NCBI GenBank assembly: GCA_007135805.1
Contig: SLID01000099.1
Location: forward strand, 1,882 to 65,881
DNA length: 64,000 nucleotides
Source of the DNA: Candidatus Omnitrophota bacterium
Lineage (GTDB): Bacteria > Omnitrophota > Gorgyraeia > Tantalellales > Tantalellaceae
Reading direction: 5' to 3'
The notes below the pieces were generated by a model. It did not search any database and had not been told where the DNA came from. It saw only the letters and a list, made by a program, of their open reading frames with translations. Positions 8,192 to 63,044 of this stretch are shown piece after piece; positions within the stretch are counted from its first letter, which is position 1; each line of letters starts with the position of its first letter. The translations under genes and the position numbers were made by a program.

Positions 8192-8551
8192 ATGGATATA
8201 GCGCTTTACATGGCTTTGGGTCTACTGGCCGGGATAGCCGGAGGTTTTCTGGGTATTGGCGGAGGGTTGATCATTGTGCCGTTTCTGGTATATTTCTTCG
8301 GGCTTACGCAGCATCAGGCCCAGGGAACTACCCTCGCTCTTATGCTTCCCCCTGTAAGTCTTCTGGCCGTTCTTAAATATTACCAGCATGGTAATGTGGA
8401 TATTCGCGTCGCTGTTTTTGTCTCTCTTGGCTTCTTTTTCGGGGGCCTTGCGGGAGCATATCTCGTTGCGCCCGTTCCCGAACAGATACTTCGCAAGATA
8501 TTCGGTATTTTTCTGCTTAGCTTTGCCGTAAAAATGATCGTGGGAAAGTGA
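8192..8551 (+). CDS. TauE/SafE-type (DUF81) membrane protein, half-size form
   Basis: 119 aa, 4 predicted TM helices. Glycine-rich GIAGGFLGIGGGLIIVPFL motif is characteristic of sulfite exporter TauE/SafE family repeats. Confidence 0.55.
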   Translation: MDIALYMALGLLAGIAGGFLGIGGGLIIVPFLVYFFGLTQHQAQGTTLALMLPPVSLLAVLKYYQHGNVDIRVAVFVSLGFFFGGLAGAYLVAPVPEQILRKIFGIFLLSFAVKMIVGK

Positions 8552-8644
8552 GTTCTGCCGGAATTTTGCGGGTGTTTTTCTTCTGAGCTGTAACATCTCA
8601 GTCATCCGCGGAAATATAGCGTCTCAACGCCCGTCTTTGCGAAC

Positions 8645-8677
8645 CCGCCGAAGGCGGGTGAAGCAATCCCAATAAAC
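8645..8677. repeat. Second copy of hairpin motif TTGCGAACC-[CCCGCC gaa GGCGGG]-TGAAGCAATC
   Basis: Stem 8652-8668. Flanks are identical to the motif at 23265..23300, while the stem bases are swapped and still pair. The upstream 8610-8644 resembles a degenerate copy of the 61-bp unit. Confidence 0.75.
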
Positions 8678-22799: not shown

Positions 22800-22889
22800 A
22801 TATAGACCGCTCCCGGCATGCGGCAATTTCCTTATTTGCCCCGGCAGCGGGAGTCTTTATGTACCTTCTATCTTGCTTTTTATCCCGCT

Positions 22890-23015
22890 TCCGGCGCCTT
22901 ACTGGCGCGGTCATTGTGAAGCTTTCGCGGTGAATGACTGATATTCCCTTTGAGGGACGCTCGGTTTTCCCAGCGCGGAAATCATCGCTGGGCGGACTCC
23001 CTCGCTCTTTCTGCT
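22890..23015. repeat. Dispersed ~125-nt intergenic sequence element, copy A
   Basis: About 80% identical over about 100-125 nt to 42191..42315. Shared blocks CATTGTGAAG(C)TTTCGCG(R)TGAAT ... GATATTCCCTT(Y)GAGGG(R)CGCTCG ... TCCTCGCTCTT. Confidence 0.7.
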
Positions 23016-23022
23016 CGGGACA

Positions 23023-23277
23023 CATCGCGAACCATGCCCGCTCGGCGAACATTTCATTTATACGCGGGAACTTTCAGTCCCGTCATCGCGAACCATGCCC
23101 GCTCGGCGAACATTTCATTTATACGCGGGAACTTTCAGTCCCGTCATCGCGAACCATGGCCGTTCGGCGAACATTTCATTTATCCGCGGTAACTTTCAAT
23201 CCCGTCATCGCGAACCATGGCCGTTCGGCGAACATTTCATTTATCCGCGGTAACTTTCAATCCCGTCATCGCGAACC
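23023..23277. repeat. Tandem direct repeat, 61-bp unit x 4.2 copies
   Basis: Units start at 23023, 23084, 23145 and 23206, with a partial unit at 23267. Units 1-2 are identical and units 3-4 are identical; the two subtypes differ at a few positions. There are no spacers, so it is not a CRISPR array. Confidence 0.95.
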
Positions 23278-23300
23278 CCGCGAAGCGGGGTGAAGCGATC
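23265..23300. repeat. Conserved hairpin motif CGCGAACC-[CCCCGC gaa GCGGGG]-TGAAGCGATC terminating the tandem array
   Basis: 7-bp GC stem (23275-23291) with GAA loop. The same motif, with compensatory stem changes, is at 8645..8677. Confidence 0.8.
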
Positions 23301-23560
23301 TCAGTTTAAAAACATTTAGTTTTTCCGGAAACAATCGATATGCTGAAAGTCGCCTTGTTACAGAGGAAAGTACAAAGCTCCTTAAAGTTATAAGGAGCCT
23401 TCCGTAAACAGTCTCTCTCCGAGATGTTTCAATTTGATGGCATCACTTCGCCGCCCCCTTCGGGGCGCCCTCGTGATCGTGTCGTTTAGATTTACCGCAG
23501 ATGAGTGATGGTTGCTTTCGGCATTCCTCATCAGGCGATAATACTTTTTTAGTCCCTAAT

Positions 23561-23602
23561 TTGACAAGTATAAATACTTGCTGTATACTTGTTGTGTACT
23601 TG
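23561..23602 (+). promoter_or_regulatory. Sigma70-like promoter (TTGACA-17-TATACT) with three TACTTG direct repeats phased at 11 bp
   Basis: -35 at 23561-66 and -10 at 23584-89. TACTTG at 23575, 23586 and 23597, each preceded by TGT(A/G). The repeats overlap the -10 and the start site, as an operator would. Confidence 0.65.
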
Positions 23603-23626
23603 TAAAAGTTTTGTTGAGAGGTTGAT

Positions 23627-23797
23627 ATGGCCAGAAAGAGGGGATTCAAATTCTATTCCACTGTATCGGACCGGGGGCAGATATTTATACCCAAAGTCCT
23701 GCAGGATTATTTTGGTATACGTAAGCGCGATAAGGTGGAGTTTATTGTGAAAGACGACGGGAGCATAGTGTTCGCAAAGAAGGAGGGGAAAGAGTGA
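23627..23797 (+). CDS. AbrB/MazE/SpoVT-family swapped-hairpin DNA-binding protein (56 aa)
   Basis: Not in the ORF track (below 60 aa). MARKRGFKFYSTVSDRGQIFIPKVLQDYFGIRKRDKVEFIVKDDGSIVFAKK fits the SpoVT/AbrB domain pattern (..rGQvtIPk.iR..lgi..GDkvef.v.ddg.ivl.k). GAGAGG RBS 5 nt upstream, consensus promoter upstream. Confidence 0.7.
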   Translation: MARKRGFKFYSTVSDRGQIFIPKVLQDYFGIRKRDKVEFIVKDDGSIVFAKKEGKE

Positions 23798-23973
23798 AGA
23801 AAAAAAACAGGACCCATTCGCACAAGGTGACGATCAATGATCAGCGGCGGGTAAACAAGATGGCCTCGGATCTAGGCAGCAAACCCGTTTCGAAAAAGGT
23901 CGTACACAATGTATTCGAGACATATTACAAGAATCAGGTAAAAGCTCTTTACCGGGCTGTTCTTGGAGAATAA
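23794..23973 (+). CDS. Small basic hypothetical protein (59 aa), translationally coupled to the AbrB-like gene
   Basis: GTG start overlaps the upstream stop (GTGA). Strong SD AAGGAGG lies 7 nt upstream, inside the upstream gene. Product VKKKNRTHSHKVTINDQRRVNKMASDLGSKPVSKKVVHNVFETYYKNQVKALYRAVLGE has no family I recognise. Alternative ATG at 23860. Confidence 0.4.
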   Translation: MKKKNRTHSHKVTINDQRRVNKMASDLGSKPVSKKVVHNVFETYYKNQVKALYRAVLGE

Positions 23974-32163: not shown

Positions 32164-32235
32164 CCGCGTGAAGCGATCTGTCCCGAGGGCTAAATTCTGC
32201 CCAGAGGGTCGGGCAGAAGAAGAGTGGGAGGAATT

Positions 32236-41974: not shown

Positions 41975-42190
41975 AAAATAAGGATAGCGACCGTTTTTTG
42001 AGGTCAAAGGTTACTGGTTCGGAGAAAGCCCCCCCGAAACGGCTAAAGTAGGGTGTAATTCTAATTAGATCCTCCGCCAGGCGTAATTTTATAAAAAGAA
42101 GTTTTCAAAGGCCATGTGACAACTTCCTTTGCGGTGACAAGGAACGACGGGATCTGCTACATGGTTTCTCATTTTATCTCTATCACGCTG

Positions 42191-42315
42191 CCGGCATCTT
42201 ATTAGCGGCGGCATTGTGAAGTTTCGCGATGAATAGCGGATATTCCCTTCGAGGGGCGCTCGATTTCCCCGGCGAGGAGATCTTCGCGCGACGCACTTCC
42301 TCGCTCTTATAAAGG
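42191..42315. repeat. Dispersed ~125-nt intergenic sequence element, copy B
   Basis: Aligns to 22890..23015 (see copy A). Lies between the nadX stop and the promoter of the Na/Pi cotransporter gene. Confidence 0.7.
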
Positions 42316-63008: not shown

Positions 63009-63044
63009 CCCGAGCGTATCCCGGCTGGCCGGGATACGCTCGGG
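63009..63044. other. Perfect 17-bp inverted repeat hairpin immediately 3' of ppdK
   Basis: CCCGAGCGTATCCCGGC-tg-GCCGGGATACGCTCGGG. There is no U-tract on either strand. Confidence 0.8.

What the first reader, a model, noticed from the sequence alone, without database searches (positions are those of the whole stretch)
8645..8677. Conserved hairpin motif with compensatory base changes at three loci (8.65 kb, 23.27 kb, partial 32.17 kb)
TTGCGAACC-CCCGCC-gaa-GGCGGG-TGAAGCAATC at 8645-8677 and ATCGCGAACC-CCCCGC-gaa-GCGGGG-TGAAGCGATC at 23265-23300 have identical flanks and loop. The stem sequence differs at two base pairs and both changes preserve pairing, which argues the secondary structure is selected as RNA or cruciform DNA. 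The sequence upstream of the 8.65-kb copy (TCAGTCATCCGCGGAAAT) also resembles the 61-bp repeat unit, so this locus looks like a third, degenerate member of the same family. The 3' flank GTGAAGCGATC recurs a third time immediately after the argG stop (32164-32180). None of the copies has a U-tract, so it is not a classical terminator. It could be an RNase/processing site, a protein recognition hairpin, or the terminus of a mobile/repetitive element.
Basis: seen in the sequence. Interest (0 to 1): 0.5.

Follow-up and report, generated by a model that had tools for sequence, protein, structure and literature searches.

The report
REP-like hairpin inside a miniature transposon
The two matching hairpins are real copies of a small palindromic repeat, a relative of the known "CGTC-tagged" REP elements; here it sits in the arms of a miniature transposon of an Omnitrophota bacterium, so it is ordinary mobile repetitive DNA rather than a gene-specific regulatory signal.

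Summary
Each unit reads CGTC, then a 4-5 bp outer stem, a GA/GAA internal loop, a 7 bp inner stem and a GAA loop, then a CYC tail. The two copies differ by three compensatory base pairs.

A scan of 185,579 species genomes found 107 matches. Of these, 84 also carry a head or tail that the search did not ask for. About half come from one Omnitrophota MAG; the rest come from Bacteroidota, Planctomycetes, Proteobacteria, Chloroflexi and Spirochaetota. Covariation is strong: 92-93% of cells are paired against 78-80% in shuffles, and 7-9 of 12 pairs show changes on both sides.

In the Omnitrophota MAG and in this window, the unit sits inside the arms of a miniature transposon (MITE). Its terminal inverted repeat is GTAACATYTCAG, and ten copies in the MAG have exact 8 bp target duplications. 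The 61 bp tandem repeat is an amplified piece of a MITE arm. Three more units lie 1.4 kb beyond the window.

The closest known kind is the CGTC-tagged REP superfamily (Di Nocera 2013), but none of its four families matches. There was no Rfam hit, no U-tract and no associated transposase. Verdict: a new member of a known kind, of modest interest.

The parts
8590..8631 (+). Terminal inverted repeat and arm of a MITE (GTAACATCTCAGTCATCCGCGGAAATATAGCGTCTCAACGCC). This is a solo left arm: no right TIR or target duplication was found.
   Evidence: Searches show 85-95% identity to about 25 left arms of the Omnitrophota MAG JBAYES01. One search found no partner TIR or 8 bp duplication downstream.
8632..8670 (+). 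CGTC-type palindromic unit, copy 1. Head CGTC 8632-8635; outer stem 8637-8640 with 8663-8666; internal loop GA 8641-8642 and GAA 8660-8662; inner stem 8643-8649 with 8653-8659; loop GAA 8650-8652; tail 8668-8670.
   Evidence: One search scores it at 60.5 bits, E 1.6e-14.
23023..23277 (+). 61 bp tandem array (4.2 units). Each unit is an amplified piece of the MITE left arm: the TIR-like GAACATTTCATTTATCCGCGG, the CGTC head CGTCATCGCGAACC, and 13 nt.
   Evidence: The public contig has 2.2 units.
23264..23302 (+). CGTC-type palindromic unit, copy 2. Head 23264-23267; outer stem 23268-23272 with 23295-23299; GA 23273-23274 and GAA 23292-23294; inner stem 23275-23281 with 23285-23291; loop 23282-23284; tail 23300-23302.
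   Evidence: One search scores it at 66.1 bits, E 4.4e-16.
23303..23438 (+). Central spacer of MITE-like element 2.
   Evidence: The whole-element fold pairs the two arms.
23439..23482 (-). Right-arm unit of element 2, a diverged variant: GATCAC-GA-GGGCGCCCC-GAA-GGGGGCGGC-GAA-GTGAT. Its outer stem TCAC/GTGA is compensatory relative to TTGC/GCAA.
   Evidence: In one search the minus strand folds at -13.0 kcal/mol (z -2.8) and the plus strand at -8.9 (z -1.4). The region 23406-23508 as a whole is 75-79% identical to JBAYES01 right arms.
23483..23515 (-). Degenerate right terminal inverted repeat of element 2 (GCAACCATCACTCATCTGCGGTAAATCTAAACG on the minus strand).
   Evidence: One search aligns it with the JBAYES01 right-arm TIR. 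One search shows terminal pairing in the fold.
32168..32179 (+). Isolated 12 nt match to the 3' tail of copy 2 (GTGAAGCGATCT), starting 5 nt after the argG stop. It may be a relic; this is unproven.
   Evidence: It is not detected by the model.

Best explanation
The hairpin is one unit of a family of REP-like palindromic repeats. Its form is 5'-CGTC, then a short outer stem (AT[T/C]GC), a conserved purine internal loop (GA on one side, GAA on the other), an inner hairpin of variable sequence usually closed by C-GAA-G, the return strand GC(A/G)AT, and a CYC tail.

In this organism, a relative of the Omnitrophota MAG JBAYES01, the unit is the subterminal module of both arms of a non-autonomous transposon (MITE).

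Shown:
- The MITE has terminal inverted repeats GTAACATYTCAG... and is 180-600 bp long.
- Copies in the related MAG have 8 bp target-site duplications, and no coding capacity was seen in the elements read (no systematic check).
- The unit keeps its pairing across many sequence variants and across phyla.
- Copy 1 is a solo left arm. Copy 2 lies in a fuller element whose left arm has been amplified into the 61 bp array.

Inferred:
- Copies arrived by transposition in trans, by a DDE-type transposase not present in the data, and by local duplication.
- Pairing is kept because the folded single strand carrying CGTC is what the propagation machinery or a host protein recognises.
- Effects on neighbouring transcripts (3'-end protection, partial termination) would be secondary consequences, not the reason the copies exist.
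For: Family membership:
- Of 107 matches in the genome scan, 84 carry a head (GTCNTN) and/or a tail (RATC) that the search did not ask for. The 23 matches with neither are mostly unpaired in the free positions.

Covariation:
- 33 distinct units: 92.9% paired against 80.1% in shuffles, 7 of 12 pairs with changes on both sides, 0 of 500 shuffles as high.
- 103 distinct model hits: 92.1% against 78.2%, 9 of 12 pairs.
- Ten different perfectly paired inner stems occur.
- Units not selected by the search pattern still keep GTC, GA, GAA and the tail C in 42-43 of 43 cases, with inner hairpins 7-40 nt long.

Strand-specific fold:
- Tandem G.A/A.G mismatches number 46, against 7 T.C/C.T on the CGTC strand.

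MITE:
- TIR pairs with exact 8 bp target duplications occur in 10 elements, and with one mismatch in 2 more.
- Both arms are homologous over about 85 nt, including the unit.
- The window arms are 75-95% identical to the JBAYES01 arms.

Same genome and independent insertions:
- Three more units lie 1.4 kb past the window end.
- The gap upstream region of JBAYES01 carries a different cluster at a different site and in the opposite orientation, which shows independent insertion.

Genomic position:
- Units avoid divergent intergenic regions (6 of 66 single units). Di Nocera et al. report the same for REPs (PMC3733652).
Against: - No transposase with these TIRs was found in the window, in 28 JBAYES01 loci, or in a metagenome scan for the TIR.
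- Neither window element shows a target duplication, and no clean empty site could be aligned. Mobility is therefore shown for the relatives and only inferred for the window copies.
- In other phyla the same unit occurs as inverted dimers without this TIR and without duplications. The MITE therefore cannot be the unit's only vehicle.
- Why the hairpin itself is conserved is not shown.
Confidence: 0.75

Rival explanations
1. The unit is a REP/REPIN in the strict sense: a single-stranded DNA hairpin with a 5' tetranucleotide tag. It would be cut and moved by a still unidentified HUH/Y1 (RAYT-like) or other dedicated enzyme, and the Omnitrophota MITE would merely carry or capture it.
For: - The architecture, a head tetranucleotide plus a hairpin plus a short tail, is that of tagged REPs (PMC3733652).
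- Outside Omnitrophota the units occur as inverted dimers without a TIR or target duplication.
- Fold features are strand-specific: purine loops and G.A tandems appear only on the CGTC strand.
- The core is identical across phyla.
Against: - No recurrent gene of any kind lies near the units in 95 loci.
- Di Nocera et al. also found no transposase associated with CGTC repeats.
- In this lineage the copies have a TIR and 8 bp duplications, which is the signature of a DDE transposon and not of HUH transposition.
Confidence: 0.15
2. The hairpin is a host-selected RNA element, such as a 3'-end stabiliser, processing site or weak terminator. It would act on transcripts of the upstream gene, and its repetition would reflect repeated recruitment.
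For: - Both window copies lie downstream of co-oriented genes (tauE, truA) and upstream of the next promoter.
- Three further copies follow a tRNA-Arg on the same strand.
- Single units show a mild orientation bias: 47 co-oriented against 25 opposed to the upstream ORF.
- The purine-rich loops are on the sense strand.
Against: - Every complete MITE and dimer carries the unit in both orientations.
- There is no U-tract.
- G:U against A:C mismatches are balanced once the outermost pair is set aside, 11 against 10.
- In JBAYES01 a cluster sits in the 5' UTR of gap.
- There is no conserved gene context across genomes and no Rfam family.
- The orientation count uses crude ORF calls and non-independent copies.
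Confidence: 0.08
3. The compensatory changes are a mutational by-product. Template switching within a quasi-palindrome would copy one arm onto the other, with no selection on structure, or the match of the two loci would be chance.
For: Quasi-palindrome correction is an established mutational process (general knowledge). The data cannot separate it from selection for any single pair flip.
Against: - It does not explain why the unpaired head, the GA/GAA internal loop, the GAA loop and the tail are conserved across phyla.
- It does not explain the strand asymmetry of G.A tandems.
- Chance is excluded: the exact pattern occurred 0 times in 100 shuffles of the window (my own count for the corrected pattern), and model E-values are about 1e-14.
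Confidence: 0.02

Closest known systems
CGTC-tagged REP superfamily (Di Nocera, De Gregorio and Rocco 2013, BMC Genomics 14:522; PMC3733652)
   Same: - An unpaired 5' head CGTC (or TGTC).
- The stem starts with AT directly after the head.
- A short unpaired 3' tail starting with C.
- Tens of copies per genome.
- Inverted dimers with the heads facing outward.
- An extragenic position, mostly between tandem or convergent genes.
- No associated transposase gene.
- Occurrence in several phyla.
- Sometimes embedded in longer palindromic sequences.
   Different: - The four described families have one continuous stem of 8-9 bp and a loop of 4-5 nt. CGTC-1 is CGTCATTCCCGCGAAAGCGGGAATC and CGTC-3 is CGTCATTGCCGGGCTTGACCCGGCAATC, as I back-translated them from the peptides in Additional file 3.
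- Here the stem is in two parts, 4-5 bp and 7 bp. They are separated by a conserved GA/GAA internal loop, and the loop has 3 nt.
- The inner hairpin varies freely in sequence and length.
- Omnitrophota, Planctomycetes and Chloroflexi are not among the phyla listed for CGTC repeats.
- Here the unit travels inside a transposon with a TIR and target duplications.
GTAG-tagged REPs / REPINs with RAYT transposases (E. coli, Pseudomonas)
   Same: A short tagged palindrome, inverted doublets, an intergenic position, and a strand-specific hairpin.
   Different: The head is CGTC, not GTAG. No RAYT or other Y1 gene was found near any copy. The copies in this lineage have a TIR and 8 bp duplications.
Bacterial MITEs and mosaic repeats (Correia/NEMIS, RPE, ERIC, E. 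coli BIMEs)
   Same: They are non-coding, 100-600 bp, have TIRs and target duplications, are built of reusable modules, lie in intergenic regions and can be co-transcribed.
   Different: The TIR sequence GTAACATYTCAG... and the arm structure are specific to this Omnitrophota lineage: the metagenome scan hit one sample only. Terminal pieces are often amplified in tandem with periods of 39, 48 or 61 bp.
IS66 family insertion sequences (possible source of the transposase)
   Same: The TIR starts with GTAA and the target duplication is 8 bp. PMC11946415 cites IS66 IRs starting GTAAGCG and 8 bp direct repeats.
   Different: The TIR is GTAACAT, not GTAAGCG. No IS66 genes were seen. This is a lead, not a test.
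Intrinsic (Rho-independent) terminators
   Same: A GC-rich hairpin downstream of a gene.
   Different: There is no U-tract, and the terminator scan found none at either site.

Membership tests
CGTC-tagged REP superfamily (Di Nocera 2013) | Unpaired 5' tetranucleotide CGTC (variants TGTC, CCTC) | tested here: met
   Both window copies start with CGTC. GTC is present in 43 of 43 distinct units not selected by the pattern, and C or T at position 1 in 38 of 43.
CGTC-tagged REP superfamily (Di Nocera 2013) | Stem begins with complementary A-T residues at the first and second positions | tested here: met
   Copy 2 has AT...AT. Copy 1 has TT...AT, so its first position is mismatched. In the family the pairs are A-U 65, G-U 16 and other 12 at pair 1, and U-A 90 of 92 at pair 2.
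CGTC-tagged REP superfamily (Di Nocera 2013) | Short unpaired 3' tail (consensus CCA) | tested here: met
   The tails are CCC and CTC. The first tail base is C in 43 of 43 and 55 of 56 distinct units, and CCA also occurs.
CGTC families 1-4 (Di Nocera 2013) | Continuous stem of 8-9 bp and loop of 4-5 nt | tested here: not met
   The stem has two parts, 4-5 bp and 7 bp, separated by a 2x3 internal loop, and the loop has 3 nt. The unit is therefore not filed under any of the four families.
CGTC-tagged REP superfamily (Di Nocera 2013) | Repeated many times per genome, mostly as inverted dimers | tested here: inconclusive
   At least 52 model hits fall in 28 loci of the related MAG. Dimers occur in other phyla. 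For the window's own genome, only 5 class-I units plus one diverged right-arm unit on 84 kb could be seen.
CGTC-tagged REP superfamily (Di Nocera 2013) | No dedicated transposase gene flanked by the repeats | tested here: met
   No recurrent ORF family lies near the units, and the ORFs read from the largest clusters did not look like transposases by eye; they were not scanned against a domain library.
MITE (non-autonomous TIR transposon) | Terminal inverted repeats | tested here: met
   GTAACATYTCAGT... is present at both ends of the JBAYES01 copies. In the window, element 1 has the left TIR only, and element 2 has a degenerate right TIR plus amplified left TIR copies.
MITE (non-autonomous TIR transposon) | Target-site duplication of fixed length | tested here: inconclusive
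   Exact 8 bp duplications occur in 10 copies of the related MAG, and near-exact ones in 2 more. None was found for the two window elements.
MITE (non-autonomous TIR transposon) | Autonomous partner with the same TIR | tested here: not met
   None was found in the fetched loci or in the metagenome scan. The one 1.7 kb TIR pair was a false match inside recJ. The collections hold only one relative, so absence is weak evidence.
GTAG REP / RAYT system | GTAG head and a RAYT gene flanked by units | tested here: not met
   The head is CGTC, and no Y1 transposase lies near any copy.
Intrinsic terminator | GC-rich hairpin followed by a T/U run | tested here: not met
   Searches report no terminator-like site at either unit. 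The 3' flanks are GAAGCAATCCCAATAAAC and GAAGCGATCTCAGTTTAA.
Any Rfam 15 RNA family | Match at or near the gathering score | tested here: not met
   The window gave 0 hits at gathering score. Permissive scans returned only chance hits, E 0.37 or worse and about 17 bits or less. In 18 related loci only tRNAs were found.

The most novel reading that the evidence does not exclude
The unit could be a structured element conserved across phyla. The head CGTC, the outer stem ATTGC/GCAAT, the purine GA/GAA internal loop and the C-GAA-G cap are nearly invariant from Bacteroidota to Omnitrophota, while the inner helix covaries freely. On this reading it is the recognition site of a widespread protein that nobody has identified. 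That protein would be the missing mobilising or processing enzyme of the whole CGTC repeat superfamily, whose propagation has been an open question since 2013. The Omnitrophota MITE would be one of several vehicles.
Probability: 0.15. Interest if true: 0.6.

Novelty: new member of a known kind. Interest (0 to 1): 0.3.

Why it matters
For annotation, the result means these hairpins, the 61 bp array and the neighbouring odd sequence should be masked as repeats. They should not be read as regulators of gap, truA or argG.

More broadly, CGTC-tagged palindromes are common across bacteria, yet nobody knows how they spread. Here a CGTC-type unit rides inside an element with clear inverted termini and 8 bp target duplications. 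That gives one concrete and testable route of spread.

The same core also recurs in cultured Bacteroidota such as Sphingobacterium and Echinicola. Those are organisms in which the binding protein or mobilising enzyme could actually be looked for.

The gain is modest, because repeats of this general kind are well known.

Tried and rejected
- My first pattern had a wrong spacer length and found nothing. I corrected it.
- Rfam at gathering and at permissive thresholds gave nothing, both on the window and on 18 related loci.
- Literature searches by sequence strings (GTCATTGCGA, GAAGCAATC, CATTGCGAGG, FARNDK and others) returned only chance primer matches. No paper links Omnitrophota with MITEs.
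- I considered a kink-turn or sarcin-ricin reading of the GA/GAA loop by inspection and dropped it. The 3' strand reads GAA-GC, not the GA required after a three-base bulge.
- All-against-all comparison of 1,451 ORFs from the loci showed no associated transposase. The largest clusters are housekeeping genes.
- The metagenome scan for the TIR returned only the sample from which the JBAYES01 MAG came. The single distant TIR pair lay inside recJ.
- The empty-site comparison with JBAYES01 at the truA/mazE locus failed, because the intergenic regions are filled with different repeats.
- The viral contig scan gave 2 matches without the family flanks.
- The G:U against A:C test for RNA-level selection showed no asymmetry apart from the outermost pair.

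Full report
**Observation.** The two hairpins are in the sequence. The exact frame GCGAA-N6-GAA-N6-TGAAGC occurs only at 8639-8664 and 23271-23296; matches with up to three mismatches are at the chance level.

The perfect inner stem has 7 bp: ACCCGCC/GGCGGGT in copy 1 and ACCCCGC/GCGGGGT in copy 2. There is also an outer stem, TTGC/GCAA against ATCGC/GCGAT, which adds a third compensatory change. Between the two stems lies a fixed internal loop, GA on the 5' side and GAA on the 3' side.

Both copies fold much better than shuffled sequence, as RNA (z about -3.2) and as DNA (z -3.1 and -3.9). Neither has a T-run. The third site is only the 12 nt tail GTGAAGCGATCT, starting 5 nt after the argG stop. 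It does not score with the family model, so I leave it as a possible relic.

**The family.** I scanned one genome from each of 185,579 species with GCGAACC-N4-GAA-N4-GGTGAAGC. The scan returned 95 stretches holding 107 matches. I estimate about 17 matches by chance.

- 84 matches also have sequence the search did not ask for: GTCNTN directly upstream and/or RATC downstream. Of these, 55 have all four free stem positions paired.
- The 23 matches without either flank are mostly unpaired.
- About half of the true matches come from one MAG, 'Candidatus Omnitrophota bacterium SO_2016_CLC_T2_83' (JBAYES01).
- The rest come from other Omnitrophota, Planctomycetia, Bacteroidota (including cultured Sphingobacterium, Echinicola, Robertkochia, Olivibacter and Ekhidna), Alpha-, Gamma- and Deltaproteobacteria, Chloroflexi and Spirochaetota.

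The general form is CGTC-AT(T/C)GC-GA-[inner hairpin]-GAA-GC(A/G)AT-CYC.

**Covariation.**

| Set | Cells paired | Shuffled | Pairs changed on both sides | Shuffles reaching the observed % paired |
|---|---|---|---|---|
| 33 distinct 39 nt units | 92.9% | 80.1% | 7 of 12 | 0 of 500 |
| 103 distinct model hits | 92.1% | 78.2% | 9 of 12 | 0 of 500 |

Slid controls in the first set pair at 26-46%. A covariance model built from the 33 units found 216 matches (E up to 1) in 752 kb of fetched loci.

Ten different perfectly paired inner stems occur. The window's two stems are the two commonest, and each is present in several phyla. The 'compensatory changes' therefore separate two old sub-lineages rather than recording local divergence.

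The 43 distinct units that the original pattern did not select have inner hairpins of 7-40 nt, including the minimal GCGAAGC. They still keep GTC, GA, GAA and the tail C in 42-43 of 43 cases; the model does bias this somewhat.

G:T and A:C mismatches are balanced once the outermost pair is set aside. Tandem G.A/A.G mismatches, however, are far commoner than T.C/C.T on the CGTC strand, 46 against 7. The fold that matters is therefore that of the CGTC strand, whether as DNA or as RNA.

**Context: a miniature transposon.** In JBAYES01 the unit lies about 45 nt inside a terminal inverted repeat, GTAACATYTCAGTYNTCCGCGGAAAT.

- Outermost TIR pairs lie 180-600 bp apart. They are flanked by exact 8 bp duplications in 10 elements and by duplications with one mismatch in 2 more.
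- Both arms are homologous over about 85 nt. Each carries a unit, and the right arm carries a variant, CGTCGTCAC-GA-GGAGCCCCCGAAGGGGGCGAC-GAA-GTGAT, whose outer stem is again compensatory.

The window holds the same element family.

- **Element 1.** Position 8590 starts a perfect TIR, followed by copy 1. Identity to the JBAYES01 left arms is 85-95%. No right end or duplication is present, so this is a solo arm, a form that recurs in the MAG.
- **Element 2.** Copy 2 closes a left arm whose TIR-plus-CGTC-head segment has been amplified into the 61 bp array. After a spacer come a diverged right-arm unit on the minus strand (23439-23482) and a degenerate right TIR ending at 23515.

Similar terminal amplifications with periods of 39, 48 and 61 bp occur in the MAG.

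The public contig that encodes the same proteins (ENA ERZ27301263 k141_454202) is identical here but has 2.2 instead of 4.2 units. On that contig, 1.4 kb beyond the window end, three more units follow a tRNA-Arg. They combine the stem of copy 1, the outer stem of copy 2 and an AGA loop.

**Relatedness and independent insertion.** The window shares 68-73% nucleotide identity with JBAYES01 over gap-pgk and over an 8 kb block, so the organism is a relative of that MAG. Upstream of gap, the MAG carries a different cluster of units in the opposite orientation. That cluster lies between the conserved promoter and the start codon, whereas the window copy lies upstream of the promoter. These are independent insertions.

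**What it is not.**

- It matches no Rfam family, at gathering or permissive thresholds.
- It is not an intrinsic terminator.
- No protein family recurs next to the units, and no transposase was seen in the loci.
- A metagenome scan for the TIR found only the sample from which JBAYES01 was binned.
- Viral contigs do not carry the family.

**Comparison with what is known.** Di Nocera et al. (2013, PMC3733652) defined two superfamilies of tagged REPs, GTAG and CGTC. Their CGTC repeats have these features:

- an unpaired CGTC head;
- a stem starting with AT and a three-base tail;
- a tendency to form inverted dimers;
- a position between tandem or convergent genes;
- occasional embedding in longer palindromes;
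- occurrence in five phyla, with no dedicated transposase.

The present unit meets the head, AT-start, tail, dimer, location and no-transposase criteria. It does not fit any of their four families, which have one continuous 8-9 bp stem and a 4-5 nt loop. Examples I back-translated from their supplementary peptides are CGTCATTCCCGCGAAAGCGGGAATC and CGTCATTGCCGGGCTTGACCCGGCAATC. The authors themselves note that members with bulges may have escaped detection.

The MITE's GTAA start and 8 bp duplication recall IS66, but that is a lead only.

**Mechanism.**

- *Shown:* the family is large, structurally constrained and strand-asymmetric. In this lineage it is carried by an element with transposon hallmarks that has inserted independently in related genomes.
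- *Inferred:* the window copies arrived by transposition in trans and by local duplication. The hairpin is kept because the folded CGTC strand is recognised by whatever propagates or tolerates it.

An RNA role is the main functional rival. Both window copies and the three tRNA-adjacent copies are co-oriented with the upstream gene. Single units show a 47:25 bias, and only 6 of 66 lie in divergent regions. Against this, each full element carries the unit in both orientations, wobble statistics are symmetric, and the gene context is not conserved.

**Verdict.** The finding is real. It is a new family-level member of a known kind of repeat, and interest is modest. The one non-trivial point is that a CGTC-type unit, whose mode of spread is unexplained in the literature, is seen here inside a bona fide TIR and target-duplication element. 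In addition, its core is conserved across phyla, including in culturable bacteria.

Noticed in passing
window 22866-23009 and 42166-42308: This is a second repeat family of about 145 nt at 71-80% identity, found in two intergenic regions. Its 65 nt core (22943-23007) is also repeated in the Omnitrophota MAG (L059, L068, L084, L096), and MITEs there have inserted into it. It has no Rfam match.
   Followed up: partly
window 23023-23277 compared with L117 3959-4091: The public ENA contig with identical flanks has 2.2 units of the 61 bp repeat where the window has 4.2, a difference of exactly 122 bp. This is either true copy-number variation or collapse of the repeat during assembly.
   Followed up: yes
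L116 12239-12953 (same contig, about 1.2-1.9 kb beyond the window end): A tRNA-Arg(CCT) is followed by a 264 bp tandem repeat. Each of its 2+ units contains a copy of the 3' half of the tRNA and one CGTC unit with an AGA loop. It resembles serial integration or duplication at a tRNA gene.
   Followed up: partly
window 23561-23973: A strong sigma-70-like promoter (TTGACA-17-TATACT, 23561-23589) drives a 56 aa MazE/PrlF-like ORF (23627-23797) and an overlapping 59 aa ORF with no Pfam match. This is a possible toxin-antitoxin pair between truA and rplM. The promoter and first ORF are conserved in JBAYES01.
   Followed up: partly
window 8192-8551: The TauE/SafE ORF is only 119 aa and matches positions 2-109 of the 237-position Pfam profile. 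It ends 38 nt before the solo MITE arm. It is either a natural half-size protein or a gene truncated by a deletion that also removed the other half of the element.
   Followed up: no
window 63009-63044: A perfect 16 bp palindrome (CCCGAGCGTATCCCGG-CTGG-CCGGGATACGCTCGGG) lies between the stop of the pyruvate phosphate dikinase gene and the sigma-70 gene.
   Followed up: no
L017 2300-2620 (JBAYES01): A cluster of four to five CGTC units and partial units sits between the conserved gap promoter and the gap start codon, in the 5' UTR, in the opposite orientation to the window copy.
   Followed up: partly
JBAYES01 loci, for example L013 1550-1625 and L031 2413-2611: Many left-arm units are split exactly between GAAGC and AATC by one to three tandem copies of a 62 nt module (CCTTCGTATCGTGATAAATGCTATGGCTCAGGATTTCGGCAGACTTGGCATAGGGCCGAAGC). 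The module repeats the GAAGC at its end. The window copies are not split.
   Followed up: no
L021 6513-6589 (Deltaproteobacteria MAG): An inverted dimer of units may lie inside an open reading frame, judging by eye from coding-like flanking sequence; I did not list the ORFs there. It would resemble the intragenic CGTC REPs listed by Di Nocera et al.
   Followed up: no
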